From: a virus
Length of the DNA stretch: 30,784 nucleotides
IMG/VR virus record: IMGVR_UViG_3300045988_133025
Coordinates: 1 to 30,784 of that record
Reading direction: 5' to 3' (one strand)
Positions 1 through 30,784 of this stretch are shown here, piece by piece; position 1 is the first letter of the stretch; each line of letters starts with the position of its first letter. Below the pieces are notes generated by a model that saw only the letters and a list, made by a program, of their open reading frames with translations, searched no databases and was not told the DNA's origin. Made by a program: the position numbers and the translations under genes.

Positions 1-55
1 CCTAAACTATCTAAGGATGCTCAGTTAGGAGCATTATTACCATTAGATACAAGAA
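1..55. repeat. 55-nt terminal direct repeat, identical to 30730..30784; circular-assembly overlap
   Basis: Read directly: cctaaactatctaaggatgctcagttaggagcattattaccattagatacaagaa occurs at both ends. It lies inside a continuous reading frame (the fibre gene), so it is an assembly overlap rather than a physical end. Confidence 0.95.
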
Positions 56-3000
56 TCTGCCCACTAGTACCACCTGAAGTAGGAGCGTAAAGTCTAACCT
101 CAACACTATCTGATGAATAAAAATTATTTATAGTACCGTTTACAACTAATTGTTTAGTTTTAAGATCTTTTAGAGATCCATCTCCCATCGTTACATTAGT
201 ACTAGTACCTCCATCACTGATAAATTTTATAGCCGATACACTTCCTGGAAAAGAAGCATTTTGAGCATTATCTCAAGAATATAGTTGACCTACTTTAGAC
301 ATATTGTTAGGCATTTTTCAACCAAAAGTACCATATCCAGAAATTCTATAGACTGTTAGTTGTCCACTATAGTTTTCATTAACACTTTTAGTTGAAAATG
401 TAAACCTTAGTTTCGAATATTGAGAAGCTTGACTTGGGGAATTGTTATAATATATAGAAGATGTCAAAGCTCTAAAATTAGGTCCCGATCACCCCCGTAA
501 AACAGCATCCTGAGATATTATATCTCAAGATTCAGAACTAGGATTATATGCTTCTATAAAGCAATTATAACCAGAGCCGTTAGTAGACACATATATATAT
601 ATTCAATCAATAGTACAATACCTGTCACTATTATTTATAGTAAGTCTATATTGAGTGGTTGTGCTAACATCTTCTGTATCTATTAATTGTAGACCATACT
701 TATTATCTTGTGAAGTAAATAAACTTATAAGTCTACTACTCCCCTGAGGATCTTCAGTTCACAATTCTCCGTTGTTTTTACTTATTTCTCCATATAAATC
801 AGTACTTTTTATAAACGCTAATTTATCAGAACAATACTCTCCAATATATGAAGTAATTCCATATGGTACAGTATTAGAAGTTGCAGTGTCAACAGTAGGC
901 CCTCCTACACTAGTTATAGGTACTTTTCCCCATTCAGGAGCTGATCTTCCATTTGAAATTAATACTTGTCCTGCTGTTCCAGGAGTTGTAGGTCCATACA
1001 ATAATTTAGAAGACCCATTTGAACATAATACCCTGTGTCCATTATTTTCCGAAGTTTTAAAACCTTTTGCTGTTATGTATGTAAGATTACTGGCCCCATC
1101 CTTAAATTGGTATTCTGTTATAGTGTTGTTAGTATTTTGCTCCCCAGTAGAGTTTTTATGATTAATTACTAGCCTTCCTCCTTTAAATGTCTGTGGTATA
1201 TAGTTAAATTCATCTGACGTTACTGTATTCATATCTAGGAAAGTTAATTTCCTAAATGTTGGTACCCCAGATGTGCCACTTGGAGCTGCTCACACTGTAT
1301 TAGCAGTTTGTGGACTTAAAGATGATCCTAATTCTACATTTCCTGTAAGTATACTGCCAGAATTAGTGAATATAGAACTTGGCAGTACTAACTTAACTGA
1401 GTTAACTAAATCAGGTTTATCTGTCACTCCTGACCAAGGCACACTAGATGCTGCTCCCGCTGTATAAATAGAGTAGCCGTCTTCACTATTTAACTTAGAA
1501 GAATCAATAACAAAATACATATGACCTGTATCTTTCTCTTTAACAGTATCGCCTTCTTGTACTTGTTCAGTGGTTAAAGCTAGTCTTGCTGCTTTATTTG
1601 CAACTATTACTAAACGCTCCAGTGCTCCCTTAGGCAATCTTTCAATATCAATAACTCCCGAGGTAATTTTACCAGCATCTATACCATTAGCAACCCCTAT
1701 ATCTACAATATGTCCTTTCTCATCCTTAGTAATAGAATTTATAATAGTTCCAGATGTAGCACTCCCTCCAACAGGAGTGTAGTGATTTGCAGCACTAGTA
1801 ACCTTGCTATCTGGAGTGTCTATATTACCTGATCCTAGGATACTTTCACCATTAATAGTTTTAATATTAGTTCCAGAAACTAACTCTCCTTGGAATTCTT
1901 CATCATAAGTTTCTACCATAACTGGTTGATTTTCTATAATATATGCAATCAGAGTTATGTTACTAGTTCCTGATAAATATGTTGCATAAGCAACAAAGCT
2001 TCTCTGAGATTCTGAAGAGGAATACTGTCAATAATTAGAGGTTAACGTCGTTTCAGCAGTTTTAATTCTAATTAAAACTGCTCTATCACTTGCCGCAGCT
2101 TCTGCAACTCTATTAAAATCTGTCTCATTTGGTATTTGTTCATTTTCTACCGTAATAGAAGGAACATCACCTACATTAATATTACCATCTCCTAATAAAG
2201 AAAGATTGTTAATTGTTCTAATTGATTCTCCACTAACAAGAATATCCTGTTTAGTAGCAATTGCAGAGGTATTACTAGTTACTTGCTCTTGTAATGTATC
2301 AACTGTACTTTTATCTGCCTTTAATGCCAAATCAGAAGTAGTTGCATAATTACCTGCAGCTTGAATACCAAGAGCAGCAAGAGTTTTATTTCCAGACAAT
2401 TCAACTGAATTAATCTGTGGTTTATTTGTCAACTGATTATAATCTCCAGTTCCTACAGATATTGATATTTCAGAAGTATCGACACTTATGTTACCATTAG
2501 CTACTAAAACTGCAGATACCTCAACGATTGTAGAATCATCTTTAAGATATATTCCTTTTAAATCTAATGATTCGTTGTTTTCAATAGCAACTAAAGGAAG
2601 AACTACTACTTTGCCTTCGTAAGTAATCTCGGCAAATAAATAGAACTCTAAATTAGACTTAATAAAAGAATATACATAAGCTTGATGTTCTGTATCATTT
2701 TCATCTAAATGTAAAAATAAATGATTATTAAATGCAGATATAACATTATCTACAATTCGTATATTGGCTCCTGCTGTTAATTTATCTTGTTTTTTAGAAA
2801 TAGCTGTATTAATTGCACTGTTAATATTGTCTATTTCTTCTTTAGTATACTTATCATTAAGAATACCAAATACTTGAGATGTTAAAATACCAGAAGCATT
2901 AGTACTTGTATTATATCCAGGAAGCTCAACTGCTTGTCCAGTTTGATTACCTAAAGATGGAGTAATAGTCAATTTAGTAGGTATTGCTTGAACCTGTATT

Positions 3001-3494
3001 GCTGGAACTATGTTCGTTGAGGCTTCTAGAGTCTTACCATTTAAAGACGGCTTATTATCTATTGAACTATAATCAGCAGATATAGTATTTCCAGATATAT
3101 TGATTCCATTACCTTCAACTAATTCATCTTGTTTTCCAGCTAAACCTTCAGTAACAGATTCATTAGTAGCAAATCCTTGACTATTTACTCATTCTTCTGT
3201 AGCATATCCATCTAAGCTAGTAATATACCCACTATCATTAGTCAATTGACTAGTTTTAGTAGGTATATTGCTAGTAGATGCTAATCCTAACTCACTTGCA
3301 GTAAGATTCCCATTTAAAGATACTCCGTTTATTTCTGGCTTATTTTGCAGATCTTGATAATTATTAGTTCCTAAATCTTCTCCATTTAAAAGAGCTATAT
3401 TATCATCTTTATCTATTACTAAGGCTTTGGTTACATTATCTCTTGTAATAGTGTCTGCCTCAAGTACATTTAAATAGGGTAATAGATTTTCCAT
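1..3494 (-). CDS. Tail fibre / receptor-binding protein, N-terminal about 1164 codons; continues across the circular junction to 30591 (1210 aa in total)
   Basis: ATG at 3494..3492 overlaps the upstream TAA (TAATG). Track pieces 3189..3494, 2028..2972, 1290..1919 and 759..1232 plus the unlisted stretches share one frame. They are separated only by TGA (lowest coordinates 3189, 2028, 1290, 759, 525, 489, 318, 273, 21). Hand translation of gaps 2973..3188, 1920..2027 and 1..758 met no TAA or TAG. Fibre-type motifs NKP(E/Q/S)(I/L)NG..L.G recur. Confidence 0.8.
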
Positions 3495-3736
3495 TATTCG
3501 TTAAGTTTTAATTTCTCCTCAATCTTTTGTGTTTGTAAATCAACATATTGCTGATGTTTACTTAGATCTATTTCATAATATGCACTAATATCCAAATCTT
3601 TTGGACAGTACATAATAGTAGAAGCACTATATTCTTCAATTGGATCAGATTCTTTATAATTAGTGATAACCTTTCCTTCCTCAGCTTCTAGTACCTTAAA
3701 CTTTAATTGATCATTTGTTGTAAATTTAATTGCCAT
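3494..3736 (-). CDS. Hypothetical protein, 80 aa, translationally coupled to the fibre gene
   Basis: Intact ORF. Its TAA (3494..3496) overlaps the fibre ATG by 1 nt. It follows the terminator at 3765..3803. Confidence 0.55.
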   Translation of the reverse strand: MAIKFTTNDQLKFKVLEAEEGKVITNYKESDPIEEYSASTIMYCPKDLDISAYYEIDLSKHQQYVDLQTQKIEEKLKLNE

Positions 3737-3764
3737 ATTATATAATTTTTATTATTAATGTCTA

Positions 3765-3803
3765 TAAAACAAAATAAGGGGCAAGTAAATTAATACTCGC
3801 CCC
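3765..3803 (-). terminator. Rho-independent terminator after the tail-tube-like gene
   Basis: Hairpin 3778..3803 (GGGGCAAGT / ACTCGCCCC, one mismatch, 8-nt loop). On the minus strand it is followed by TTATTTTGTTTT. Confidence 0.7.
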
Positions 3804-3814
3804 TCTTTCTGTTA

Positions 3815-4339
3815 TTAAGCACCTACAACGCTTTGGATAGCTTCTGCAGATAACTCATAAGGATAAGAATCTGAATCTGTTGAAAGTGTCAGAGTATAAG
3901 CATTCTGATCACCTTTAGCAGTACCAGTAACACCCGTACCAGCGGAAGCGCTTACATAATCATCTTTACCTAAGAACCAATACTTACCATTGCTGTCTTC
4001 AACAACAACTGCAAGCTGACCAATTGATAAAGCTGCAATCTCTACTCGTTTTGCGGTTTCCATCTTTGTAAATACAAGAGCAAGCTCATTACTTACATAA
4101 TTAACACCAGCACTTTCATCTACATTTAAAGTTGAGGTTAGAGAACCAGTAGCCTTTCTAAATTGGTAGTTATACCATTTAGCTGAAGTCTCAAGAGTAA
4201 TAGCTGAAATCATATTGCTATCTTGATCAACCGTTACACTCTTAACATCTGCATACTGAGTAATCCAGACCTGTTTGATGCCACCCAATGAAGGTTGGCA
4301 ATCAAGTGTGATTCCTGCGATAGTTATTAAACAAGCCAT
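3815..4339 (-). CDS. Major tail (tube)-like structural protein, 174 aa
   Basis: Intact ORF ending in TAA. The pattern GGIKQVWI...WYNYQF...NGKYWFLG...TGVTGTAKGDQNAYTLTL resembles siphovirus tail-tube families. It lies downstream of the capsid gene, has richer G/C codon usage, contains no TGA (3 Trp, all TGG) and is followed by a strong terminator. Confidence 0.5.
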   Translation of the reverse strand: MACLITIAGITLDCQPSLGGIKQVWITQYADVKSVTVDQDSNMISAITLETSAKWYNYQFRKATGSLTSTLNVDESAGVNYVSNELALVFTKMETAKRVEIAALSIGQLAVVVEDSNGKYWFLGKDDYVSASAGTGVTGTAKGDQNAYTLTLSTDSDSYPYELSAEAIQSVVGA

Positions 4340-4360: not shown

Positions 4361-5095
4361 TTATTCGTATTTCCACTTTCATTTATAACCAAAACAAGAA
4401 GATCTTTTACCATTACATACATCTGGAATATGAGAACGCTTACTATTAAATGATTTAGCTGCATTCATTATACAATTCCATTCTTTAATAAATTCTCCAT
4501 CTAATGAATACTGCAATACTGGTTTACCATACTTATTAATCATAGCAGCACTGACACTTTTACTAAGTTTTTCTTTGGTAGCATCACTATGATGTTTCCC
4601 TCACATATTTCCCTTCTCTCCTTTTTGAGCTTCAGATATTTTGCGTTTATGTCCCTCAGAAAGTTGTTTACCTATATTATGTATAGGATCAATCCATCTT
4701 TCTGGATGATTCTTCATATATTCTCTCTGCTTTTCTATTCTCTCAAGAGATAACTTAACACCTTTATGTGATTCACTTATCTTTTTTCTAGATTCATCAG
4801 ATACCACTCTATTTAATTGACCTCCAAAATCAATATTATAGCCAAACTCAGAATCATAAGACTTATACTTCTTTATATAGTACTTTTCCCAATTAGTCTC
4901 TAAAGTCTTTAATACCTCTATATTAAAAGATTCTTTACCGTATTTTAATACTGCAGATTTTAGATGAGCATTGCCTCTCTGATGAAGAGACATATGCTCA
5001 CTAAATCTTTGTCTTATATTTCTTATAGTTTGACCTATGTAAACTTTGTTATTTATAGTATTTGTAATTATATAAACGTTCCCAATTCGGTTCAT
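4361..5095 (-). CDS. GIY-YIG homing endonuclease (free-standing), 244 aa
   Basis: N-terminus GNVYIITNTINNKVYIGQT...RF.EH. NUMOD3-like GKHHS..TKEKLS and a C-terminal IENR1-like QYSLDGEFIKEW...CNGKRSSCFGYKWKWKYE appear only when TGA at 4601..4603 and 4379..4381 is read as Trp. Stop is TAA at 4361..4363. Confidence 0.85.
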
Positions 5096-5138: not shown

Positions 5139-6038
5139 TTAAGCTTTTGCACCAAGTACGATCTCATCAGGGAAAGCAACTTGTACACCAGCGTTAAATT
5201 CAATAGCTAATCTAAATTCTCTGAAATCCTGCGAATACCACATTTCGAATTTCTCTTCGTCATTCATCATATCGCAGCCATAGAAGAAGTTCTTGTCAAG
5301 CTGACCAGCAACGATCTTGTCAGTTCCGTTAAGACCATTAACAGCGATTACTTTAACCTGCGAACCAGGAAGCATAATCTCACCGTTAAGATTCTCACCA
5401 CTATAATGGAAGTAGTTCTTAACAACTAACTCCTGGACGAATTTACGGAAGGTATCAGCGCCTACTAAGATAGAAGCACCATCAAGTACTTTCTCAGGAA
5501 TAGCATTATAAACCTTCATAACGTCATCGTAAGCAGAAGTACCAGCAATCGTTACTTCAACAGTACCAACAGCATTTTTTAAGATCTTTAACAGACCATC
5601 GAAATACTTAAGGTTGTTCGTACTAGAAGTAGTATCACCTTGCCAGATAGCGGTTTCAATAGTGGCTTTAACATTCTCAACTACACCACTAATAAAGTCC
5701 TCTTCGAAAGGAAGCGTTTTCTGACCAGCAGCAACGCGAACCTGATACTGAGTCCAATATTTAAGCATAGCTTTGTCGCAATAAGCCATATTAATCTTGA
5801 TATTTCCAGTCGTAAGAACTCGTTGTGAAAGAGTCTGCGTTCCAGCCTCATCCCATCCACAAGTCAGACCATCTCCAAATTCAACATCAGTTGAAAGTAA
5901 GTTAAGAGCAGCTGAAGTTTTAATATCAGTCTGTAAGTTAAATAAACTAGCACTCTTAGCTTTTAATACAGCCTCTTTAATAAGAGGTAATCTACGCTGC
6001 TCAACATAAGCAGTCAAAGAAGTCATTACAGGATTCAT
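5139..6038 (-). CDS. Major capsid protein, 299 aa
   Basis: Intact ORF directly downstream of the protease-scaffold pair (an HEG intervenes). Size and position are typical of an HK97-fold capsid protein. Codons are G/C-richer. There are 4 Trp, all TGG, and no TGA. Confidence 0.7.
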   Translation of the reverse strand: MNPVMTSLTAYVEQRRLPLIKEAVLKAKSASLFNLQTDIKTSAALNLLSTDVEFGDGLTCGWDEAGTQTLSQRVLTTGNIKINMAYCDKAMLKYWTQYQVRVAAGQKTLPFEEDFISGVVENVKATIETAIWQGDTTSSTNNLKYFDGLLKILKNAVGTVEVTIAGTSAYDDVMKVYNAIPEKVLDGASILVGADTFRKFVQELVVKNYFHYSGENLNGEIMLPGSQVKVIAVNGLNGTDKIVAGQLDKNFFYGCDMMNDEEKFEMWYSQDFREFRLAIEFNAGVQVAFPDEIVLGAKA

Positions 6039-6044: not shown

Positions 6045-6554
6045 TTAATTTTGAAATAAATGATTTCTATGTGTTTTTGCCCTACCAGCTAAAACATTAT
6101 CTACACATTTAGGATTATATCCATCTTTCTTTAATTCTTGTCTATTGTAATAGACTTTTACTAAATTTCCATCTAAAGAATAACACTTTATACCTTCGTA
6201 TGATTTACTTCAGGTAACTCCAAGTCTAGCTTTACTGATTGATATTTTAGAGTCTTCTGTATGATGTTTCCCATAAAACGGATTATTAATTCCAGTATGA
6301 TTGTGTCCTTTTCTTTTACCTCCGTTTAATCCTCCAGGTTCTTGATTCATACATAAAGGATCTGTCTTTCAAAGATTGCCAATTCAATATGTATCAACTG
6401 TTCCGTATTTATCGAAATAAGATTTACAAAACCGACCGCTTCCCCTATAAGCTTTGTCATTTTCAGGCTTATATTTAACTGTTCGTTTTCCTATATAATA
6501 TTTTCCAAAATGATTAGGATGAAGGAAGTCGATTCTATAAATATAATGATACAT
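6045..6554 (-). CDS. GIY-YIG homing endonuclease (free-standing), 169 aa
   Basis: There is no ORF here in the standard-code track. With TGA=Trp (6384..6386, 6369..6371, 6210..6212) it reads MYHYIYRIDFL..GKYYIGKR...NPFYGKHHTEDSKISISKA...YSLDGNLVKVY. The ATG overlaps the scaffold TAA (TAATG). Stop is TAA at 6045..6047. Confidence 0.8.
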
Positions 6555-7156
6555 TAACCAATAAAGTTTTTAAGCTTCTTATCTATTTCTGCTATCCCAC
6601 TTATAGGAGCAGTTGTTTTATTTTCAAGTGTTTCCTCTGCTGAAAAAGCAGCACTCATCTTACTCATTTTTTCTACAGTCTTTTCAGTAGCTTCTGATTT
6701 TCCTTCAAGTTCTGCTACCTTCTTAACAAGCTTATCTACAATATCGTAAAGCTCATTAATTTCGCGATGAATAGCGTCGATTGCATCAGTCTCAGTTTCT
6801 TTAACACCGTCTGTTTCAACAGCAGGATCGGCAACTTCCTCAGCTTTTACTTTCTTAGTTCCACAAGCAGCATCAACTTCTGCTTTAGCTGCTTCTTCTG
6901 GATCAACCTCAGCTTTAGGATCAGTAATGGACTCTACTTTACCGTCTTTAACAACAATCGTCTTTCCATCCTCAGTTACATACTCACCATCAGCAGCAGG
7001 TTTGTATTCTCCGTTCTCATCCTGAACATATACATCCATACCAGCGCGTAAGTCTTCATCTGAATCCCAAGTTAAGACTCCATTTGAAGTTTTCAGATCA
7101 CTGAACTTTGCAAGCATTTTAGCCAATTCAAGCTTGATTCTTGTGAATTTGCTCAT
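6554..7156 (-). CDS. Scaffolding protein, 200 aa
   Basis: Acidic, Lys/Glu-rich, coiled-coil-like sequence between the protease and the capsid gene. No TGA. Confidence 0.6.
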   Translation of the reverse strand: MSKFTRIKLELAKMLAKFSDLKTSNGVLTWDSDEDLRAGMDVYVQDENGEYKPAADGEYVTEDGKTIVVKDGKVESITDPKAEVDPEEAAKAEVDAACGTKKVKAEEVADPAVETDGVKETETDAIDAIHREINELYDIVDKLVKKVAELEGKSEATEKTVEKMSKMSAAFSAEETLENKTTAPISGIAEIDKKLKNFIG

Positions 7157-7169
7157 TTAATTAATAATT

Positions 7170-7763
7170 TTAATGTTTAACTCTTTTTATTTTTCTCAAC
7201 ATTTTTTGAATCTCTTTAAGTTCCTCATATTCATCAGATTGTCTTTCTAAAGTAAACAATCCCTCAATAGAGAATCCTTTAAACTTGCCAGCTTTAATTG
7301 CATCCCATATAACAGGATTATTTACTTTATAAGTAGCAAATAATGAACCATCTGGACAATCAGCAAATTCAACTGGATTAATTCCTCTATCTATATCTTT
7401 AATATATAGCTCTTGAAGAATTATTCCAGGAATTACCGAATCTTCCAAATGTTCAATATTTACATCAGTAGTTCTCTTATCATACATCATTTTTTCAGCC
7501 ATTAAACGGAGAGTTTCTTTATCATATTGAATATAATATTCTCCGTTTTTACTATCCCGTCTAAATATAGGTATATCACATACCATTAAACAAGAAGTAA
7601 CTATATGTTTTTCTTCATCCATCGAGAACTTCTGAGATTCCCCAAAAGCAAGCCAATTAACTTGGGTTGCAGGTTTACTGGTCAATGCTACGAACTCTAT
7701 TCCATCACAATCATCAGCAATAATTGCTTGATATAATGGAAGATCATTATACATTTTTTCCAT
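7170..7763 (-). CDS. Prohead protease, XkdF-like, 197 aa
   Basis: DVNIEHLED...GSLFATYKVNNPVIWDAIKAGKFKGFSIEG matches the XkdF-type phage protease pattern. It sits just upstream of the scaffold and capsid genes. No TGA. Confidence 0.6.
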   Translation of the reverse strand: MEKMYNDLPLYQAIIADDCDGIEFVALTSKPATQVNWLAFGESQKFSMDEEKHIVTSCLMVCDIPIFRRDSKNGEYYIQYDKETLRLMAEKMMYDKRTTDVNIEHLEDSVIPGIILQELYIKDIDRGINPVEFADCPDGSLFATYKVNNPVIWDAIKAGKFKGFSIEGLFTLERQSDEYEELKEIQKMLRKIKRVKH

Positions 7764-7938: not shown

Positions 7939-7960
7939 TGTCAGAAATTTTACTCACTTT
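7938..7960. promoter_or_regulatory. Conserved intergenic motif, copy A1 (GTGTCAGAAATTTTACTCACTTT)
   Basis: A more diverged copy. It overlaps the tape-measure stop codon (7959..7961). On the minus strand it directly precedes the 7895..7938 hairpin. Confidence 0.5.
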
Positions 7961-17009: not shown

Positions 17010-17011
17010 TT

Positions 17012-20153: not shown

Positions 20154-20175
20154 AGTATATATAACTATTATAGTA

Positions 20176-21839: not shown

Positions 21840-21936
21840 AATTTATAAATTTTAATTGTTAATATTATATCTTTTATTGTAATACAAAGATAATGAAAAG
21901 TTTTTAATTCTCAAAATATTTAAGCAATTATTTTTA

Positions 21937-23020: not shown

Positions 23021-23806
23021 ATGAATTGGAAATCAACAAACATTAAAGGATATTCAGTTAGTGATGAAGGTCAAATAAAGAACGAACTAACAGGAAAAGT
23101 ATTATCTCAGTTTAAGAATAATATGGGGTATTATTTAGTAAGCATACAAGATAAAAAGTATCTTGTACATAGATTAGTAGCAGAGGCGTTTTTAAATAAA
23201 CCTAATAAATGTAATATAGTAGAACATAAAGATGATGATCCCACAAATAATTGTGTAGATAATCTTATGTGAAGTACTCAGAAATTGAATTTAAATAGGC
23301 AAGGAAGGCTTGAAAAGTTAAAAAGGTATTATCAGTCCAATGAATGAAAAGAAGCTAGAAAAAAGGCTTTAGAAACAATGAAAGCAAATGGATTTAAAAA
23401 GACTAAATCAGATAAGCAAAAGGCTAAAGAAGCGGCCAGATTAGATAGAATATCTAAAGAAAGAGAGAATATAAGACCTACTCTCGACCAACAATATGAT
23501 GCGTTTATTAATCCTTTAATTGATTTACTTAAATCTGGATATAGTTTAAAGAGAGCTGCACAATATTTTGGAATAAATGATACTACTGGCATTACTTATT
23601 TTTCTAAAAGATATTATGAAGAAACAGGAATTAAACTTATTACATATAAGATTAAAAAATCGTCGTTTTCAAATGCAGAAAAATTAATGAATAAAATTAA
23701 AGAATTATATAATCAAGGTTTAACTGTAGAGGAAATAAGTGAAGAAGTAAATAGATCAATTAATATTGTTAATAAGTATATAAAACTATGGAAGATTCAT
23801 ATTTAA
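23021..23806 (+). CDS. HNH_3-type homing endonuclease with NUMOD4-like N-terminus and two C-terminal HTH modules, 261 aa
   Basis: Track ORFs 23021..23272 and 23378..23806 are in one frame, joined through TGAs at 23270..23272 and 23345..23347. It reads WKSTNIKGYSVSDEGQIKN...VHRLVAEAFL...VEHKDDDPTNNCVDNLMW, where the conserved NL.W Trp is a TGA. Confidence 0.8.
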
Positions 23807-24250: not shown

Positions 24251-24278
24251 AAATAGGAGGGCATATACCCTCCTATTT
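24251..24278. terminator. Bidirectional terminator between the convergent plus module and the leftward unit
   Basis: 11-bp perfect stem AAATAGGAGGG / CCCTCCTATTT with a 6-nt loop and T-rich flanks on both strands. The TAG stop of the HNH gene (24273..24275) lies inside the stem. Confidence 0.75.
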
Positions 24279-24596
24279 CTGTTTAAATCTTTGATAGTTG
24301 CTAACCGATGAATGAATAGCTTTATGACAAACTGAACATAATGTTATTAAATCCTCCAAATGTTCCTGCTCATTATAAAGGTTAAGATACGTTCGATGAT
24401 GTACCGATAAAGACCTATTTCCGCCTTCTTGAACACATCAGTTACAAGTTTGGCAGTGATAGTTATCTCGCAATAATATTTGCTCTCTAATGGCCTTAAA
24501 ATCCTTTGATCTTATATATCTTTGGTACTTTAAATATTCTTCACTTCTTACTTTCTTTTTCGTCTTATGAAGCAGTTTACTTGATTTAGAGTCCAT
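24273..24596 (-). CDS. Classical HNH endonuclease, 107 aa (possibly packaging-associated)
   Basis: No track ORF. With one TGA (24438..24440) it reads ...REQILLRDNYHCQTCNWCVQEGGNRSLSVHHRTYLNLYNEQEHLEDLITLCSVCHKAIH, which has the HNH/CxxC pattern. Confidence 0.75.
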
Positions 24597-24636: not shown

Positions 24637-25140
24637 TTACTTTATAGCCTTCTCTAATTGCTTTAGAATAAGAACATCGTCTTTATATGCACCTACTTTT
24701 TTAGCTCTAGGATTATTGCCAAAAGAATTATTTAAATAACTCAAATCTTTACCTTTATGACTATTACTCATCTTTTTTCTAGTCTCTTCTGATGGGTGTC
24801 TTCCAATACATTTGGCTCTAATCTTATCTTTTCTTTCCTGAGTGAATACAATACCTAAGGTGCCGTCACCTCCATCTGTAGCATTATATCCATATTTTGG
24901 ATCTCTAGTATTATATTTATGAATAAGAATTTTTTCTAAAGTCTTGGCACAAGGTTCTGGTAAATTATCTTTAATTATAATATGTTCAAAATTATCCCAG
25001 CCGTATTTTGTTATAGCGTTTCAAAACGGCTGTTTTCTATAACCAAGACCATTTGCTCATCTTATTTCTGGATTCTTACAAGTAATGCCAATATATTTCT
25101 TACCATTAATCTTGTTTAAATGAATATATATACTATACAT
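24637..25140 (-). CDS. GIY-YIG homing endonuclease (free-standing), 167 aa
   Basis: No track ORF. It reads MYSIYIHLNKINGKKYIGIT...IRWANGLGY...FWNAITKYGWDNFEHIII with two TGAs; the KYGW Trp is TGG (24997..24999). The ATG overlaps the endolysin 3' end. Stop is TAA at 24637..24639. Confidence 0.85.
24861..25009. repeat. Dispersed repeat, about 85% identical to 28332..28480 (GIY-YIG core of paralogous HEGs)
   Basis: Aligned by eye over 149 nt. This includes a 33-nt perfect run, ATTATCTTTAATTATAATATGTTCAAAATTATC, at 24964..24996 and 28435..28467. Confidence 0.85.
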
Positions 25141-25582
25141 ATAAATTACCTTTTTTTCTTCGTTGTAGTCCTTTAATACTATATAAAGCAATGTGCACTC
25201 ACTGAGATGTACGACTTTTTTCTATAAAACATTCATCGAAATTTCTATCCTTCAAAAAGTTTAATAGGAATTGATAAAACTCTTCTCTACTTCCAGAGAC
25301 ATTTTGAAGGTCTGCAGCATAACCCGTCATATGTGCAGATGTAACTGAACCATTTACAGCTTTATTAAGTTCATTACATCTATAACCTGAATTCACACTT
25401 ATTGCTGGATTTCCCAACCGATTAACATCACAATACTCTGCCCAATCACTTCTTAATGGATCTAAAAGTTTCTCGACTAACTCTATAAGGTGTTCAGTAA
25501 TCTCTTTATTTGGAGTATTATCTATCTGCTTAATAGAAGCTGTATCAGATCTTGTTAATTCACTAATAGTAAAATATTTCAT
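25133..25582 (-). CDS. Endolysin, M15-family zinc peptidase (L-Ala-D-Glu / D-Ala-D-Ala peptidase type), 149 aa
   Basis: F.ISEL...LLDPLR...ISVNSGYRCNELNKAVNGSVTSAHMTGYAADL matches the SxHxxGxAxD metal-binding motif. The ORF continues through a TGA (25199..25201) into WVHIALY..., restoring the family's conserved C-terminal W-V-H. Stop is TAG at 25133..25135. Confidence 0.75.
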
Positions 25583-25746: not shown

Positions 25747-26400
25747 TTATTTATTTAAAATTATACTTATTTTAATTCCTGCATCTCTTAGTTTTACTCA
25801 AGTATCAACTGGCATCTCATTATCACAATAAGATAATCCTAAAACTCCAATATCTCTATCTTCTGACTTTAAATAGAATATTGCAATCTTATTAACATCA
25901 TTAGATTTAAATGTATAATACATTCTCCTATCTAATTCCTTTATATCTTCAACATCTCCAAATCATCCTCCTTTTTTAGATGTTTCCAATATAAATAAAT
26001 AATCAGATAATAGGAAATCTTTATAGTGTTTAGAAACTGAAGCAACTCCAGGTTCTGTTTCTTCACTATTCATAATCCCATAAGTAAATGGAAGTCCTCC
26101 TAATCCTGAAGTGCCATTATGATACTCAATAACTCAAGCTCTATCTGCATTCGTATCATTTAAAAGATCTTTAAGGATATATCTAACCTTAAGATCTGCT
26201 TCTTGTCGTATTAATTGATTAGTATTATGAACTGTTTTTATATAGTTTGTAACTCTATCATATATTATTCCTGGATTAGTACTTATAATTATTACATAAG
26301 AAACAAATATAAATCCAAATCCACCTTTAATTATTTTTCACAGTCCATATTTATCTACTCATTCTAATACCTTTCCAAACCAGTTTAATTTATTTTCCAT
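25747..26400 (-). CDS. Membrane-anchored hypothetical protein, 217 aa, at the head of the lysis cassette
   Basis: No minus-strand track ORF. Five in-frame TGAs (including 26359 and 26338). N-terminal hydrophobic anchor GGFGFIFVSYVIIIS. The ATG overlaps the upstream TAA. Stop is TAA at 25747..25749. Confidence 0.6.
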
Positions 26401-26825
26401 TACATACTGTCTTCGCATACTCCAATAATATTGTCTACAGCAAAATCAACTCTAACAAATACTCCAGTACAAATATCTTTGAACTTCTGATAAAATGGAG
26501 TAAAAATTAAAGGATAAGAAATATCAACTTCTGGATAATGGTTATTAAATCGGTTAATTATATTAGTTAAAGCTAATATTCCTGCTGACTGCTCTTCTAG
26601 CTGATTATTATCAGTCTCATCCCATCTTGCTATAAAATAGAGATTTAATGAGTAAGTAATAGTATCTTCATCCATATTAAATGTATTTGGCGTTATATAG
26701 AACACATTATACTCAATAGTTGGAATACTATTAAGTTCATATATATCTTTACTTCCTACAAAATTAATATTAGGTTCTTCAAGAGCACAAGCTTTTAAAT
26801 TTGAAATTATTTCGTAGTATGTCAT
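26400..26825 (-). CDS. Hypothetical (probably virion or neck) protein, 141 aa
   Basis: Intact ORF, tightly packed between an HNH HEG and the lysis cassette. Confidence 0.55.
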   Translation of the reverse strand: MTYYEIISNLKACALEEPNINFVGSKDIYELNSIPTIEYNVFYITPNTFNMDEDTITYSLNLYFIARWDETDNNQLEEQSAGILALTNIINRFNNHYPEVDISYPLIFTPFYQKFKDICTGVFVRVDFAVDNIIGVCEDSM

Positions 26826-26826: not shown

Positions 26827-27318
26827 TTAAATGTATTTAAAAGTTAATTTATTCTTATATTTTCTACCTGTTTTTAAACAGTAACGTATACTTTTAGAGT
26901 CTATATTTAACCTACGAGCACATTCATTAATAGATGGATATTCTATATCATTACATAATATTTTATGAGATTGCTTATAAATTGAATACCTAGTATTATA
27001 TGAAATAGTACACCATTCTAGATTACATACTCGATCGTCATTCTTTACTTCATTTTTATGATTAACAACTGGATAGTTACTTGTATTAGGTATAAACGCT
27101 TGTGCTACTAGTCTACATATTCTGTAATAGTAATACCTACCATCTTTCATTAAAGTAACTCTCCTATATCCATCCTTATCCATACTAGGCTTTAAAATAC
27201 GCTCATTTACTGGGCAAATACACCCATTCTTACTAAGTCTAGCTCTTGCAACTGATTTAACTTCTCCAGAATCACTCACTTGGTAATAACCTTCAAAGTC
27301 TTTAATATCTTTCCACAT
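26827..27318 (-). CDS. HNH_3-type homing endonuclease with NUMOD4 N-terminus, 163 aa
   Basis: It reads MWKDIKDFEGYYQVSDSGEVKS...GYRRVTL...RLVAQAFIPN...VNHKNEVKNDDRVCNLEWCT. No TGA. Confidence 0.85.
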   Translation of the reverse strand: MWKDIKDFEGYYQVSDSGEVKSVARARLSKNGCICPVNERILKPSMDKDGYRRVTLMKDGRYYYYRICRLVAQAFIPNTSNYPVVNHKNEVKNDDRVCNLEWCTISYNTRYSIYKQSHKILCNDIEYPSINECARRLNIDSKSIRYCLKTGRKYKNKLTFKYI

Positions 27319-27320: not shown

Positions 27321-27983
27321 TTACTTTTTCTTATTCTTATTTGAACTTGGAAAATCATATCTAGATCTTAGAGAATTATTATATAGTCCCTTCGAGCGTA
27401 TACCTCCGAGTCACAAACCACAGCTACTCGAACTGTATAAATTAGGATAGAGATCTTTTAACGGCTTATATTCATACAATTCAGGAAAATCATTATAATA
27501 TGTAATTACCCAATTTTGCAATCTTGTTTTAAAGAAATCTGCTTTATCTCTATAATACTTCTTAATAAGATTAACTTGATTAATATCAGAAGTTAAATTT
27601 TTCTCATCATCAGTCCTCATAACCCCAAAATTACTCAGCTTAAAAGAGATAGGAATAGTAATTTCACTTAATACTTGATAAAGTAAATAAGGCTGAATAT
27701 AGTAATCTAGCAATTCTTTATATCTATGATTTTCTGGATCATCTATAGATGTTGGATCATAAATAGGAGGTTCTATTGGATGAACTGGTTTATTTGGATC
27801 TTTCCAATCAATTACTAATTTCTGAATCTTCTCTAAGAGCTTAGTTCCAATTAATGACTGAAGCTCAATATCTTGTGCAAGTTTGATTGCAGACTGAAGA
27901 TATTTACCAGAAACATTATTATCTAAATTAGATTCTGATTTTATATAATCTTCAGATATTAATAGTACGTTTCTATATTCCAT
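27321..27983 (-). CDS. Hypothetical protein, 220 aa; possible head-tail connector or adaptor
   Basis: Track ORF 27411..27983 continues through a TGA (27411..27413) for 29 more codons to TAA at 27321..27323. The N-terminus (LISEDYIKSESNLDNNVSGKYLQSAIKLAQDIELQSLIG) resembles gp6-type connector proteins. Confidence 0.35.
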
Positions 27984-28626
27984 AATAATATTTATAATTT
28001 TTACAGGGTTTATTTTTTCTACAAGATCTAGATATACTAGAAGAATCTACATTATTCTTCTCTCCAGCTTCTTTAGCTGATTTATACTCACAAATAAAAT
28101 TACCATCTAAATCATACTTATATACTTTTTTGCACTGGCGTTCTGAAATTAGTTGTTTTTCTTTATCTGAGAGTTTCATACCTTTATTTCAAGGAGTTTT
28201 GCCTAATCTTGCCTCCCTCATTTTACGCTTGCTTTCATCTGAATGCTGTTTACCATAAAATGAATTATTTTCTCCTGATCTTATAATTCTAAGACTATCT
28301 TTATAATCTTGTGAAAAAGAATATCCACAAGTACCGTCTCCTCCATCAGTTAAATTATACCCATATTTTGGATTTCTAGTATTATACTTATAAATCAGAA
28401 TCTTTTCTAAAGTCTTAGCACAAGCTTCTGGAAGATTATCTTTAATTATAATATGTTCAAAATTATCTCATCCATATTTTTTAATTGCTCTGCTAAAATA
28501 AAGATTATTCTTGTAACCTTGACCTTTAGTTCCCCATCTATTATTTAAAGTAAGTGATGTTATTCCAAAATATAATTTATTATCAGCTGTATTCTTATGG
28601 CAGTACACTGTATAATTATTCAACAT
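27973..28626 (-). CDS. GIY-YIG homing endonuclease (free-standing), 217 aa
   Basis: Only the last 68 aa are in the track. With TGAs at 28468..28470 and about 28188 it reads YTVYCHKNTADNKLYFGIT...NRWGTKGQGY...AIKKYGWDNFEHIII...NSFYGKQHSDESKRKM...YKYDLDGNFICEY. Its 5' end overlaps the portal stop and its 3' end overlaps the next gene's start. Stop is TAG. Confidence 0.85.
28332..28480. repeat. Dispersed repeat partner of 24861..25009
   Basis: See 24861..25009. At the KYG-W codon this copy has TCA on the plus strand (TGA in the gene) where the partner has CCA (TGG). Confidence 0.85.
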
Positions 28627-29683
28627 TTTCTGCATTATCTGACATTCCTTTTGGAGTTAAACTAAATGGCTCAATCGTAATACTATTCTTAATACCGAAG
28701 ATTTTATCAAATGAATCACAAATTTCTGATTGTATTGGGCGTACAAAAGTACGATTATATAGCTTAAATGCTTCATTAAACTCATTTTCATTAAATCCTG
28801 AGCTATAGTTTAAACCGAACAACGAAGGATTAGCTCTGAAGGCACAGAATATTTGATCTCTGGTTCTCTCAGATAGTGATTGATATTTCTCATCAAAATC
28901 ATCAGAATCTAACCTTTCAATTGTGGTCTTATTTGTCTCATCTGCATTATATGAAATCAATATTCTGCCAGCGTTTTGATAACCAGAGAACTTCTCATTA
29001 ATATTTCTTTCAATCTCTTCTCTAATTTCATCTGTAGGTTCCCCATTATTAAAGTTAATAATAAGATTACCCATAAATCCATTATTGATGTTATTTAAAT
29101 GGAATTCATTAATATTTTTCTCAGTTTCGCAAGATAAAATAGCAGCTCCATAAACAGGAATAGGATATACTCCTCTTGTTATATAACCTTTATTATAAAA
29201 TATACTAGCTGGATTTTCATCTCCAACTCCAAATTTTGGATATTTAATAGCTTTTACAGACCAAGCAGTCCAATCAGTTGCATAGTATAATATATCATTC
29301 TTTTCACTTGATCTTATATTCATAAAATCAATATGATAGATTTCTGCAACTCTTCCAATCATATCTCTAATTACTTGGATAGCATAACCTCCAAATATCA
29401 TCTTATCAATAGTGATTTTTCTCATTATATCAACTATTGTTTCACCTTTCTTGTTTACAACTACTTCAAATCCTGGAGCATTACATTTAACATCATTACC
29501 AACAATAAAGTCAGCAGAACCATTAATAATAGATTGGAGAGTGGCAACATTTAAATATAAATCCCATAAATATAATGGATATTTGTTATCTTCCCCTCAC
29601 ATTATCATATCAGAACCTCTTTTCCTTGTTTCCGTTGGAAGAACGATGTTAGATTGAATGAAAGGATCTATGGCTGACATCAT
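28616..29683 (-). CDS. Portal protein, 355 aa
   Basis: The track ORF 28616..29425 extends upstream through a TGA (29597..29599) to ATGATG at 29683. It reads MWGEDNKYPLYLWDLYLNVATLQSIINGSADFIVGN...DKMIFGGYAIQV, a PBSX/HK97-type portal N-terminal pattern. Confidence 0.65.
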
Positions 29684-29693
29684 TATTTTACTT

Positions 29694-30086
29694 TTATTTT
29701 CGCTCATAACTTACGTATGTATTAGATTTATCATATTGATATTTATTATTCTCATAATCTCCAATTCTTATTAATCCTGTTCCCAATATAGGTATTGGTT
29801 TACCAGCTACTAATATCTGAGTGCCATTAGTAAGAGTATTATTATATGTAACCAAGATAACTGGATTTCCATATAACTCTGATCTAAATGGATTGTTTAC
29901 ATCAACTATAACTTGAAATTTATTTGGATTAGTAAATAAAATATATTGATATTCACCATCTCGCATTCCTTCTTGAAGTGTAATATCAAACTTATAGTAG
30001 ATATTCTCAGAATAATTCTGATTTTCAAGATTAAATGTATAAACTTCTTTTGTAGTTGTATTTTGCATTAATAAAGTATAATTCAT
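29694..30086 (-). CDS. Hypothetical protein, 130 aa
   Basis: Intact ORF, the first gene after motif copy C and its hairpin. Stop is TAA. Confidence 0.55.
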   Translation of the reverse strand: MNYTLLMQNTTTKEVYTFNLENQNYSENIYYKFDITLQEGMRDGEYQYILFTNPNKFQVIVDVNNPFRSELYGNPVILVTYNNTLTNGTQILVAGKPIPILGTGLIRIGDYENNKYQYDKSNTYVSYERK

Positions 30087-30188: not shown

Positions 30189-30211
30189 TGTCAAGTTTTT
30201 TACTCACTTTA
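30189..30211. promoter_or_regulatory. Conserved intergenic motif, copy C (TGTCAAGTTTTTTACTCACTTTA)
   Basis: Matches copy A2 at 20 of 23 positions by eye (first 18 nt identical). It lies between the 30240 gene and the 30086 gene. Confidence 0.6.
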
Positions 30212-30239
30212 AGTTATAATAAAAATAAAAATACTGATG

Positions 30240-30467
30240 TTATTTATCAGAATCTGCTAACTTACTCTGTAACTCTTGTATTGTTGCTTCTAGCTCGTTG
30301 ATCTTGTTATTATACTCATTAGCAGTTATATAGTCTCCTTTTGGTTGAAATAAAGCATCTACTTCTAATTTTGAATAACTACCAATGGGTAATTGACCTT
30401 TTTCTATTCCAGTCTTTTTGGCAATATAGAAAGTCTGCGTATTTTTAGAATTCTTTAGTAATATCAT
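30240..30467 (-). CDS. Hypothetical protein, 75 aa, with a C-terminal coiled-coil
   Basis: Intact ORF with a TAA stop. Confidence 0.5.
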   Translation of the reverse strand: MILLKNSKNTQTFYIAKKTGIEKGQLPIGSYSKLEVDALFQPKGDYITANEYNNKINELEATIQELQSKLADSDK

Positions 30468-30475
30468 AATTAGGA

Positions 30476-30589
30476 CTATTTATTAGAAGTTGTAGTCGTT
30501 GCAGGCCAGATTTGGGTACTGCCAACATAAATGGCAATACCCTTTCTGTCACCTACATAAAATCCTTTTAAATCGGTCTTTATGTTCAT
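30476..30589 (-). CDS. Hypothetical small protein, 37 aa
   Basis: The ATG lies 1 nt after the fibre TAA. It reads MNIKTDLKGFYVGDRKGIAIYVGSTQIWPATTTTSNK and ends at TAG, with a TAA two codons later. Confidence 0.3.
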   Translation of the reverse strand: MNIKTDLKGFYVGDRKGIAIYVGSTQIWPATTTTSNK

Positions 30590-30590
30590 A

Positions 30591-30784
30591 TTATTCAACT
30601 ATTAAATATTGAGTATTAGAATCTTTTGTTGATAAACCATCATATTCTGATTGAGTTAGAACAGTAATCGTATTTATTTGAGGTCGGGTTCCAGTTCCAG
30701 CTTCAATATAGTTTCCAGCAGGCTGAATACCTAAACTATCTAAGGATGCTCAGTTAGGAGCATTATTACCATTAGATACAAGAA
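30591..30784 (-). CDS. C-terminal end of the tail fibre gene that starts at 3494 (wraps the circular junction)
   Basis: Same frame as 1..3494 once the 55-nt overlap is collapsed: (3494 + 139) nt = 1211 codons. It reads ...APNWASLDSLGIQPAGNYIEAGTGTRPQINTITVLTQSEYDGLSTKDSNTQYLIVE* with TAA at 30591..30593. Confidence 0.8.
30730..30784. repeat. 55-nt terminal direct repeat, identical to 1..55
   Basis: Read directly. Confidence 0.95.

What the first reader, a model, noticed from the sequence alone, without database searches (positions are those of the whole stretch)
1..30784. TGA is a sense (Trp) codon across the whole genome, so the standard-code ORF track is an artefact
Seen directly:
- Every break between collinear ORF fragments is a single in-frame TGA, never TAA or TAG.
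- I hand-translated the unlisted gaps (12771..13388, 11634..11996, 11112..11264, 15638..16051, 2973..3188, 1920..2027, 9507..9659; 14276..14884 only partly codon by codon) and met no other stop.
- Joining the pieces yields single genes of 1210, 1145, 779, 725, 415 and 355 aa.
- It also exposes GIY-YIG genes where the track shows little or nothing (three with no ORF at all, two only partly covered).

TGA falls on positions that are Trp in the families concerned:
- GIY-YIG 'KYG-W-DNF' is TGG in one paralogue (24997..24999) and TGA in two others (28468..28470, 10670..10672).
- The 'R-W' after the YIG motif is TGA in two paralogues and TGG in the third.
- The HNH_3 'NL.W' is TGA at 23270..23272 but TGG in 26827..27318.
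- The M15 peptidase 'W-V-H' Trp is TGA at 25199..25201.
- The second Trp of a BACON-like repeat is TGA at 11265..11267.

I count about 60 in-frame TGAs. All convincing gene ends are TAA (most) or TAG (17197, 17858, 24273, 25133, 27973, 30476). Recoded phages are known, but this one is small and recoded throughout.
Basis: partly seen in the sequence, partly recalled or inferred. Interest (0 to 1): 0.9.

Follow-up and report, generated by a model that had tools for sequence, protein, structure and literature searches.

The report
Gut phage that reads TGA as tryptophan
This is a complete 30.7 kb bacteriophage genome, probably from the human gut, in which the usual stop codon TGA encodes tryptophan throughout, a known phenomenon, although this phage and its roughly 40 relatives carry none of the usual machinery for rereading the codon.

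Summary
The window is an assembler-closed tailed-phage genome: a 30,729 bp unit plus a 55 nt end repeat, 29% GC.

- With only TAA and TAG as stops, it resolves into about 37-45 tidy genes at 88-93% coding density. Under the standard code it gives fragments at 72%.
- 56 in-frame TGAs lie in 21 of 37 confident genes.
- TGA and TGG interchange freely at the same positions among close relatives.
- Standard-code relatives have Trp or aromatic residues opposite TGA, and never Gly.
- TGA never terminates a gene, in the window or across the clade.

Stop-codon-recoded gut phages, including small ones, are already described, so this is a new member of a known kind.

Several points add some interest:
- No tRNA, release factor or TrpRS was found in the window. 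No tRNA was found in the fetched loci of about 40 relatives.
- TGA occurs in putative early and regulatory genes but is avoided in head genes, the reverse of the published pattern.
- Host signals point to Bacteroidota, where no TGA=Trp lineage is known.
- JGI and GenBank gene calls for this clade are truncated at TGA.

Who decodes UGA remains unresolved.

The parts
1..30784 (.). Complete tailed-phage genome written in genetic code 4 (30,729 bp unit plus the repeat). Nearly all genes are on the minus strand.
   Evidence: GC 29.4%; ORF tiling appears only when TGA is sense; coding density is 93% with the curated code-4 gene set.
1..55 (.). Exact 55 nt direct repeat with 30730-30784. It is an assembler closure of a circular or circularly permuted genome.
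   Evidence: D4. The tail-fibre ORF reads continuously across the junction and ends in a Pfam Phage_tail_C tip domain.
30730..30784 (.). Second copy of the 55 nt terminal repeat.
1..3494 (-). Tail fibre, N-terminal 1164 codons. The whole gene is 1210 aa with 10 TGA and 2 TGG.
   Evidence: The standard-code track shows 4 fragments.
30591..30729 (-). Tail fibre C-terminus and its TAA stop, continuing from position 1 across the junction.
   Evidence: Phage_tail_C, E=5.7e-9.
3815..4339 (-). Virion protein (phrog_19091) with 3 TGG and no TGA. Across the clade the count is 1 TGA to 83 TGG.
4361..5095 (-). GIY-YIG/NUMOD homing endonuclease with 2 in-frame TGA.
5139..6038 (-). Major capsid protein candidate. 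Its 4 Trp codons are all TGG, and the clade shows 0 TGA in 132 Trp codons.
6045..6554 (-). GIY-YIG-like/NUMOD3 endonuclease with 3 TGA. It is invisible in the standard-code track.
6554..7763 (-). Scaffold-like gene (6554-7156) and head-maturation protease (7170-7763). Both are TGA-free in the window.
7959..10298 (-). 779 aa coiled-coil, tape-measure-like protein with 1 TGA.
   Evidence: It is split into 2 ORFs under code 11.
10286..10831 (-). GIY-YIG endonuclease with 5 TGA. It has no standard-code ORF.
10833..14270 (-). 1145 aa tail or baseplate-like protein with 7 TGA and 12 TGG. It has a weak, sub-threshold viral BACON_2 hit at aa 984-1040.
14273..16450 (-). 725 aa structural protein with 4 TGA and 12 TGG.
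17858..19105 (-). Large terminase with 1 TGA. The sister phage has TGG at that position.
19875..20207 (-). Small membrane protein with 4 TGA and 2 TGG.
20300..20840 (-). Two overlapping small genes. 20300-20548 has a sigma-70 region-4-like HTH. Across the clade, TGA makes up 75% and 30% of their Trp codons.
20833..21150 (-). HNH_3/NUMOD remnant with 3 TGA.
21885..21915 (-). Bacteroidetes-type promoter candidate, TTTG-N19-TATCTTTG, in the early intergenic region.
   Evidence: The motif is found in relatives covering this region (41 of 195 loci), in many as a divergent pair. Consensus from PMC7366714.
22889..22919 (-). Second Bacteroidetes-type promoter candidate, upstream of 21937-22683.
23021..23806 (+). 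HNH_3/NUMOD4 homing endonuclease with 2 TGA. The one at 23270-23272 falls on the conserved 'NL.W' Trp.
24273..24596 (-). HNH endonuclease with 1 TGA.
24637..25140 (-). GIY-YIG endonuclease with 2 TGA and 1 TGG. It has no standard-code ORF.
25133..25582 (-). Peptidase_M15_3 (putative endolysin) with a TGA at 25199-25201. The public JGI gene call stops there, giving 127 aa instead of 149 aa.
25747..26418 (-). 223 aa protein (phrog_30125) with 5 TGA and 1 TGG.
26827..27318 (-). HNH_3/NUMOD4 endonuclease with TGG at the position where 23021-23806 has TGA.
27973..28635 (-). GIY-YIG/NUMOD endonuclease with 2 TGA.
28616..29707 (-). Portal protein with 1 TGA. That position is TGG in 16 close relatives, TGA in 6, and W in the sister phage.

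Best explanation
**Shown**
- The window is a complete tailed-phage genome of about 30.7 kb. Its close relatives come almost entirely from one catalogue that I take, from memory, to be the human-gut MGV set.
- Its genes are written in genetic code 4: TGA is a tryptophan codon synonymous with TGG, and only TAA and TAG terminate.
- It belongs to a large clade of phages of about 30 kb and about 31% GC that share the recoding. The nearest standard-code relative has a 67% identical capsid protein and hardly uses TGA at all.
- The window carries no tRNA and no recognisable release factor or Trp-tRNA synthetase. No tRNA was found in the fetched loci of about 40 relatives.

**Inferred**
- UGA decoding must therefore be supplied in trans by the infected cell. 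It must work from early in infection, because putative early and regulatory genes contain TGA.
- The host is probably a Bacteroidota.

**My preferred mechanism (about 0.4, not shown)**
- The cell is standard-code, and UGA is read as Trp by the host's own near-cognate tRNA-Trp(CCA), or by a cell-resident suppressor, once RF2 is out-competed or antagonised.
- A slow decoder of this kind would explain two things: TGA is kept well below its mutational expectation, and it is purged from the most highly expressed head genes.
For: **Code**
- TGA and TGG interchange among 32 relatives.
- Trp or aromatic residues, and never Gly, lie opposite TGA in standard-code relatives and in GIY-YIG and M15 family columns.
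- Density and gene length rise only when TGA is sense.
- No TGA stops occur in the window. At homologous stop positions across the clade the counts are TAA 120, TAG 22, TGA 0.

**Phage identity and completeness**
- TerL, portal, M15, protease and capsid candidates are present, and the ends carry a 55 nt repeat.
- At least 595 capsid relatives exist in IMG/VR.

**No decoding machinery**
- ARAGORN finds nothing down to -ps95, and its lower-threshold hits lie inside genes.
- Infernal/Rfam finds no tRNA at E<=10.
- None of the 151 loci scanned has a tRNA gene.
- Pfam and PHROG find no RF or aaRS among the window proteins scanned.

**Inefficient decoder**
- TGA makes up 44% of Trp codons, against 70-87% A-ending in the other A/G codon pairs (binomial p=6e-14).
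- Head genes have 2 TGA to 16 TGG, the rest 54 to 56 (Fisher p=0.004).
- Clade-wide, the capsid gene has 0 TGA in 132 Trp codons.

**Early use**
- Early and regulatory genes have 7 TGA to 7 TGG.
- The sigma-like family uses TGA for 75% of its Trp codons.

**Host**
- No Shine-Dalgarno motif, with A-rich positions at -11 to -14 and -3, as described for Bacteroidetes (PMC7366714).
- TTTG-N19-TATCTTTG promoter candidates in the early intergenic regions, shared with relatives.
- The nearest chromosomal M15 homologue found sits in an integrated element of a gut contig flanked by DUF4492, DUF5053 and Phage_int_SAM_5 genes. That these families are typical of Bacteroidales is my recollection, not a test.
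- Distant capsid relatives occur in Bacteroidota MAGs.

**Feasibility of tRNA-free decoding**
- In E. coli with attenuated RF2, Trp from native tRNA-Trp was the most abundant residue inserted at UGA (PMC11903333).
Against: - No RF2 antagonist or any other switch factor has been identified. The mechanism rests on absence of evidence plus codon-usage patterns.
- Reading ten TGAs in a single tail-fibre gene needs near-complete suppression, which is demanding for near-cognate decoding.
- The base after TGA shows no bias relative to TGG (p=0.56). This fits absent or neutralised RF2, but it fits a host that natively lacks RF2 equally well.
- The host assignment is indirect. No CRISPR spacer match or prophage junction was found.
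- The published model places recoded codons in late genes and standard code in early genes. Here the pattern is reversed, which argues against a phage-timed switch and leaves a natively UGA-decoding host as a serious alternative.
Confidence: 0.85

Rival explanations
1. The host itself decodes UGA as Trp. It would be either a Mollicute or a not-yet-recognised code-4 lineage, and the phage simply mirrors its host's code. No switch is needed.
For: - No tRNA, RF or aaRS in the window, and no tRNA in the fetched loci of about 40 relatives.
- TGA occurs in putative early and regulatory genes.
- TGA is never a stop in the clade.
- The base after TGA shows no context bias.
- Published code-25 phages of code-25 hosts behave this way (10.1101/2021.08.26.457843).
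Against: - Host signals are of Bacteroidota type.
- The phage has a peptidoglycan peptidase, which argues against wall-less Mollicutes.
- No code-4 Bacteroidota is reported in recent surveys (10.64898/2025.12.01.691617; PMC13092985).
- TGA makes up only 34-44% of Trp codons despite 29% GC, and is purged from head genes.
- The sister phage uses the standard code.
Confidence: 0.25
2. A co-resident element supplies the suppressor tRNA(UCA). This could be a larger TGA-recoded phage, a prophage, or a host-borne suppressor tRNA. The 30 kb phage would then free-ride on that changed translation environment.
For: - Large TGA-recoded gut phages with suppressor tRNAs exist (10.1101/2021.08.26.457843).
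- Suppressor tRNAs occur in about 0.3% of standard-code bacterial genomes (PMC13092985).
- The phage carries nine homing endonuclease genes rich in TGA (17 TGA to 12 TGG in the eight intact ones), which suggests gene traffic within a pool of recoded phages.
Against: - No direct evidence.
- The closest non-clade GIY-YIG homologues examined sit in standard-code contexts.
- Obligate dependence on co-infection seems a fragile basis for such a large clade.
Confidence: 0.12
3. The phage encodes a non-canonical suppressor tRNA that the standard tools miss.
For: Borges et al. suggest this for the 65% of code-4 phages without a detectable suppressor (10.1101/2021.08.26.457843).
Against: - Coding density is 93%, so little room remains.
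- ARAGORN hits at relaxed thresholds all lie inside genes.
- No tRNA-clan hit appears at E<=10.
- The only conserved intergenic motif is a 17-18 nt box followed by a terminator-like hairpin, which is not tRNA-like.
Confidence: 0.06
4. TGA encodes glycine (code 25), as in phages of Absconditabacteria and Gracilibacteria.
For: One poorly conserved GIY-YIG column has Gly as its commonest residue (24 of 70).
Against: - No Gly appears opposite any of the 31 TGA positions in the sister phage.
- Delta lnL is -51 versus Trp.
- The TGA/TGG interchange would not be synonymous under code 25.
Confidence: 0.01
5. The TGAs are real stops: a decayed or pseudogenised genome, sequencing errors, or isolated programmed readthrough or selenocysteine sites.
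For: None beyond the fragmented look under the standard code.
Against: - All 56 interruptions are the same codon; none is TAA or TAG.
- The same positions are conserved as TGA or TGG in dozens of independently assembled relatives.
- Essential genes are affected, including TerL, portal, tail genes and the lysin.
Confidence: 0.01

Closest known systems
Alternatively coded (stop-codon-recoded) gut phages of Borges/Peters et al. (bioRxiv 10.1101/2021.08.26.457843): code-4 Agate and Jade phages and the small Garnet, Amethyst and Topaz clades (22-34 kb)
   Same: - Gut origin, low GC and TGA->Trp.
- A close standard-code relative in which TGA stops are depleted. The sister phage has 3 of 36, and two of those are backed by a TAA or TAG within 1-2 codons.
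- A genome of about 30 kb, and no detectable suppressor tRNA, as in 65% of their code-4 genomes.
   Different: - Their model has recoded codons concentrated in structural and lysis genes, with early genes in standard code.
- Here the head genes are almost TGA-free, while the putative early and regulatory genes use TGA freely.
- There is no integrase and no switch operon (RF, TrpRS or tRNA).
- I could not test whether this clade equals one of their named clades, because no sequences were available for comparison.
TGA- or TAG-recoded crAss-like phages of Bacteroidales (Yutin et al. 2021; MGV, PMC8241571; Mgcod, 10.1101/2022.06.29.495998)
   Same: Probable Bacteroidota host, low GC, no Shine-Dalgarno motif, and stop-codon reassignment.
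   Different: - Those genomes are about 100 kb, with block-wise dual coding and usually suppressor tRNAs.
- This one is 30.7 kb and recoded without blocks.
- TerL and capsid show no close similarity to any cultured phage.
Phages of natively code-4 hosts (Mycoplasma and Spiroplasma phages), and code-25 phages of Absconditabacteria
   Same: Genome-wide use of TGA as a sense codon, no need for a phage tRNA, and no TGA stops.
   Different: - The phage has a peptidoglycan peptidase and Bacteroidetes-type promoter and initiation signals.
- TGA is the minority Trp codon despite 29% GC.
- The amino acid is Trp, not Gly.

Membership tests
Genetic code 4 (TGA = Trp) genome | In-frame TGA inside conserved protein-coding genes | tested here: met
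   56 TGAs lie in 21 of 37 genes, including TerL, portal, M15, GIY-YIG and HNH.
Genetic code 4 (TGA = Trp) genome | TGA aligns with Trp in homologues that use the standard code | tested here: met
   W is the maximum-likelihood residue, and TGG was confirmed at the DNA level in standard-code loci.
Genetic code 4 (TGA = Trp) genome | TGA and TGG behave as synonymous codons among close relatives | tested here: met
   121 TGA-to-TGG cells and 141 TGG-to-TGA cells.
Genetic code 4 (TGA = Trp) genome | TGA is not used as a terminator | tested here: met
   None of the 37 window genes ends in TGA. At homologous clade stop positions the counts are TAA 120, TAG 22, TGA 0.
Genetic code 4 (TGA = Trp) genome | A cognate tRNA-Trp(UCA) and loss of RF2 in the translating system | not testable with these tools
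   The phage genome has no tRNA. The host is unidentified, so its tRNA set and prfB status are unknown.
Alternatively coded phage with a phage-driven code switch (Borges-type) | Phage-encoded suppressor tRNA, release factor or aaRS | tested here: not met
   None was found in the complete window genome, and no tRNA in the 151 relatives' loci.
Alternatively coded phage with a phage-driven code switch (Borges-type) | Recoded codon concentrated in late structural and lysis genes, with early genes in standard code | tested here: not met
   Head genes have 2 TGA to 16 TGG and the capsid gene 0 in 132 clade-wide. Early and regulatory genes have 7 to 7. Gene timing is inferred from position only.
Alternatively coded phage with a phage-driven code switch (Borges-type) | Low GC, and TGA-stop depletion in standard-code relatives | tested here: met
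   The sister genome has 27% GC and stops of TAA 30, TAG 3 and TGA 3.
Alternatively coded phage with a phage-driven code switch (Borges-type) | The host uses the standard code | tested here: inconclusive
   Indirect Bacteroidota signals, and no code-4 Bacteroidota is reported (10.64898/2025.12.01.691617). There is no direct host link.
Phage of a Mollicute (native code-4) host | Host-type expression signals and lysis genes compatible with a wall-less Mollicute | tested here: not met
   The phage has a Peptidase_M15_3 peptidoglycan hydrolase and Bacteroidetes-type -33/-7 promoter candidates.
Caudoviricetes (tailed dsDNA phage) | Terminase large subunit, portal, capsid protein and maturation protease | tested here: met
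   Pfam Terminase_6N/6C and Phage_portal. PHROG structural protein and protease hits.

The most novel reading that the evidence does not exclude
A whole clade of probable Bacteroidota phages is written in code 4 yet encodes no tRNA, release factor or synthetase, and it uses TGA even in early genes. One of two things then follows. Either these phages convert a standard-code cell to UGA=Trp by a tRNA-independent route, for example an RF2 antagonist that lets host tRNA-Trp(CCA) read UGA. Or they mark an unrecognised gut Bacteroidota lineage, or a common cellular state, that natively decodes UGA as Trp.
Probability: 0.3. Interest if true: 0.8.

Novelty: new member of a known kind. Interest (0 to 1): 0.4.

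Why it matters
**Practical**
- Public gene calls for this contig (JGI) and for a relative (GenBank TPA) stop at TGA.
- About 60% of the genes are therefore fragmented or missing, including five GIY-YIG endonucleases, the terminase, the portal and the tail genes.
- Re-annotation with code 4 is needed.

**Conceptual**
- The clade is a clean, small and abundant test case for the open question of how recoded phages without a suppressor tRNA get UGA decoded.
- It comes with a syntenic standard-code sister genome for comparison.
- Its codon-usage pattern (TGA avoided in head genes, tolerated in early genes) does not fit the current 'late-gene timer' model.

Tried and rejected
- **PDB sequence search** for M15 and GIY-YIG. 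The hits did not cover the TGA positions, so they were uninformative.
- **Cultured-phage search.** TerL is at most 28% identical to any cultured phage, and the capsid protein has no hit at all. There is no cultured relative and so no host from that route.
- **Exact-sequence look-up** of the window's capsid protein and of the JGI M15 call. Neither is on record.
- **The 148.6 kb IMG/VR contig** carrying a relative. I hoped for a prophage-host junction. The stretch next to the phage copy is further TGA-recoded, phage-like sequence joined head-to-tail, and no host DNA was seen in the parts I fetched.
- **GTDB genome scan with the capsid protein**. It gave only two short contigs in Bacteroidota MAGs at 33-36% identity. 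No prophage was found.
- **Looking for a clade-specific switch gene** by comparing the early region with the full sister genome. The regions are syntenic and no obvious extra conserved gene appeared.
- **Termination-context test**. There is no +4 bias, so it does not discriminate between models.
- **'TAA as sense' ORF coverage**. This is inflated in AT-rich DNA and was discarded as a criterion.

Full report
**What the window is**

The 30,784 nt window has 29.4% GC. Its first and last 55 nt are identical, so it is an assembler-closed genome of 30,729 bp.

- Almost all coding is on the minus strand.
- With TAA and TAG as the only stops, the strand tiles into genes for a tailed phage:
  - large terminase (17858-19105)
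  - portal (28616-29707)
  - capsid candidate (5139-6038)
  - protease (7170-7763)
  - a 779 aa tape-measure-like protein
  - 1145 aa and 725 aa tail proteins
  - a 1210 aa tail fibre that runs across the junction and ends in a Phage_tail_C domain
  - an M15 peptidase (25133-25582)
- No cultured phage is close. TerL is at most 28% identical and the capsid protein has no hit.

**Check of the observation**

Every coordinate I checked in the finding is right.

- The standard-code ORF list shows the collinear fragments. Three GIY-YIG genes have no ORF at all and two are only partly covered.
- I count 56 in-frame TGAs in 37 confident genes, 21 of which have at least one. Seven more lie in two additional ORFs.
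- Stops are TAA 31, TAG 5 and TGA 0.
- A simple greedy gene caller gives 53 genes, 71.7% density and a mean of 139 aa under code 11.
- With TGA as sense it gives 45 genes, 88.1% and 202 aa.
- The TAG-sense control gives more and shorter genes.
- The curated code-4 set covers 93% of the genome.

**What TGA means**

1. The capsid protein finds at least 595 relatives in IMG/VR. I fetched loci from about 40 close relatives with 85-97% capsid identity, contigs of about 30 kb, mostly from the set numbered 3300045988. They show the same gain when TGA is sense. More distant relatives do not.
2. In codon-level alignments with 32 of the close relatives, window TGA pairs with TGA 263 times, TGG 121 times and TAT 22 times. 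Window TGG pairs with TGG 828 times and TGA 141 times. This is the behaviour of synonymous codons.
3. I reconstructed the standard-code sister genome (IMGVR_UViG_3300029905_000019, 30,128 bp, capsid 67% identical) in full.
   - It has TGG at 9 of 31 aligned TGA positions, Phe or Tyr at 6, and no Gly.
   - This spectrum resembles the one opposite genuine TGG codons.
4. A BLOSUM62 likelihood over 35 observations puts Trp first. Delta lnL is 8 versus Tyr, 10.6 versus Phe and 51 versus Gly.
5. Two conserved GIY-YIG columns are W in 62 of 70 homologues. In a standard-code SPbeta-like phage, three of the five TGA positions of the GIY-YIG gene at 10286-10831 are TGG at the DNA level.
6. The M15 column is W in 26 of 30 distant homologues.
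7. At homologous stop positions across the clade the codon is TAA 120 times, TAG 22 times and TGA never.

Code 25, pseudogenisation, sequencing error and isolated readthrough are therefore excluded.

**How it compares with what is known**

- Stop-codon recoding in gut phages is established. The MGV catalogue screened explicitly for TGA-recoded viruses (PMC8241571). I recall the set 3300045988 to be MGV, but I did not verify this.
- The Banfield-lab survey describes TGA->Trp and TAG->Gln phages, including small clades: Garnet and Amethyst at 34 kb and Topaz at 22 kb. It finds suppressor tRNAs in only 35% of code-4 genomes (10.1101/2021.08.26.457843).
- TGA-recoded phages are much rarer than TAG-recoded ones: 21 against 5,706 contigs in Dutch cohorts (PMC9610469).
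- So the finding is correct but is a new member of a known kind.
- Public annotation of this clade is still partly wrong. A JGI gene call on a contig of exactly 30,784 bp is this window's M15 gene cut at the TGA, giving 127 aa instead of 149 aa. A GenBank 'MAG TPA: peptidase [Caudoviricetes sp.]' entry has the same truncation.

**Who decodes UGA?**

The window has no tRNA.
- ARAGORN finds nothing down to -ps95, and lower-threshold hits lie inside genes.
- Rfam finds nothing at E<=10.
- None of the 151 loci scanned by ARAGORN, which include the fetched parts of about 40 relatives' genomes, has a tRNA gene.
- Pfam and PHROG find no release factor or synthetase among the window proteins scanned.

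Decoding must therefore come from the infected cell.

Three further observations constrain how:

- *TGA is under-used.* It makes up 44% of Trp codons, whereas the other A/G-ending pairs are 70-87% A-ending (p=6e-14).
- *TGA is purged from head genes.* Across the clade the counts (TGA of all Trp codons) are capsid 0 of 132, the 3815-4339 protein 1 of 84, scaffold 0 of 23, protease 6 of 65 and portal 19 of 153. By contrast it makes up 31-75% of Trp codons in tail, terminase, lysis and regulatory genes. In the window alone, head genes against the rest give Fisher p=0.004.
- *TGA occurs in genes next to the putative early promoters*, including a sigma-region-4-like protein.

This is the reverse of the published 'late genes recoded, early genes standard' pattern. 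It argues against a phage-timed switch. The base after TGA shows no bias.

**Host**

The evidence is indirect but consistent.
- There is no Shine-Dalgarno motif (4 of 37 genes), and upstream positions -11 to -14 and -3 are A-rich. This is as described for Bacteroidetes (PMC7366714).
- Two TTTG-N19-TATCTTTG elements match the Bacteroidetes -33/-7 consensus in the early intergenic regions. The same pattern is found in relatives covering this region (41 of 195 loci), in many as a divergent pair.
- The closest chromosomal M15 homologue (48% identical) lies in an integrated element of a human-gut contig, beside DUF4492, DUF5053 and Phage_int_SAM_5 genes. That these families are typical of Bacteroidales is my own recollection.
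- Distant capsid relatives sit in Chitinophagaceae and Bacteroidota MAGs.
- There is a sub-threshold viral BACON_2 hit.
- The M15 peptidoglycan peptidase argues against wall-less Mollicutes.
- No code-4 Bacteroidota is reported in recent surveys (10.64898/2025.12.01.691617; PMC13092985).

**Most likely mechanism (inference)**

In a standard-code Bacteroidota cell, UGA is read as Trp without a phage tRNA.
- The simplest route is near-cognate reading by host tRNA-Trp(CCA) when RF2 is out-competed or antagonised.
- In RF2-attenuated E. coli, Trp from native tRNA-Trp is the main residue inserted at UGA (PMC11903333).
- A slow decoder would explain both the under-use of TGA and its removal from the most highly expressed genes.
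- I give this about 0.4.
- A natively UGA=Trp host gets about 0.25, a co-resident element supplying tRNA(UCA) about 0.12, and an undetected phage tRNA about 0.06.

The sister genome illustrates the presumed precursor state.
- It has 27% GC and no in-frame TGA in its genes.
- Only 3 of 36 stops are TGA. For two of them, a TAA or TAG follows within 1-2 codons.

**Verdict**

The finding is a new member of a known kind. Interest is moderate, because this clade is an unusually clean case of tRNA-less, 'early-gene' TGA recoding with an available standard-code sister.

Noticed in passing
window 7841-7883, 17001-17043, 30187-30229 (minus strand): A conserved box, GAGTAAAAA(N1-2)TTGACA, lies in intergenic regions ahead of structural gene blocks. 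In two of the three copies a GC hairpin and a T-run follow it. The box occurs 1-4 times in 109 of 198 fetched loci, always on the coding strand. It may be a clade-specific late promoter, a terminator or a processing signal.
   Followed up: partly
window 4361-5095, 6045-6554, 10286-10831, 24637-25140, 27973-28635, 23021-23806(+), 26827-27318, 20833-21150, 24273-24596: Nine homing-endonuclease genes sit in 30.7 kb: five GIY-YIG, three HNH_3 (one a remnant) and one HNH. That is about 15% of the genome. They are TGA-rich (17 TGA to 12 TGG in the eight intact ones). The syntenic standard-code sister appears to have fewer.
   Followed up: partly
window 20300-20840 (minus strand): A sigma-70 region-4-like HTH protein (82 aa) is preceded by an overlapping 102 aa ORF. 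The pair may be a two-part or split phage sigma factor. Its homologue in the standard-code sister is one of the few genes there that ends in TGA, with another stop 2 codons later.
   Followed up: partly
L002/L102/L187 = IMGVR_UViG_3300045988_175865 (148,631 bp), contig 109806-148631: This 'viral genome' holds more than one genome length of this phage type joined head-to-tail, with further divergent TGA-recoded sequence upstream. It is probably a multi-strain concatenated assembly. Its end coincides exactly with window position 1, inside the tail-fibre gene. That suggests a recurrent assembly-graph branch point at a variable region.
   Followed up: partly
window 17054-17410 (minus strand): An ORF of 119 codons (stop to stop) with 4 TGA overlaps the 3' end of gene 17197-17856 in another frame. 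It could be an overlapping gene or a frameshift product.
   Followed up: no
window 21937-22683 (minus strand): This is the first gene downstream of a putative early promoter. It encodes 248 aa with no Trp codon of either kind. It is poorly conserved in the clade and has only weak HTH hits.
   Followed up: no
L193 = IMGVR_UViG_3300021399_000377: A more distant relative (portal 61% identical, GC 35%) is also TGA-recoded. The recoded group therefore extends beyond the tight 85-97% capsid-identity cluster.
   Followed up: partly
window 18369-18440 (minus strand): A sub-threshold Rfam hit to plant snoRNA R43 (34.7 bits against a gathering score of 50) falls inside the terminase gene. I judge it to be chance.
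   Followed up: no
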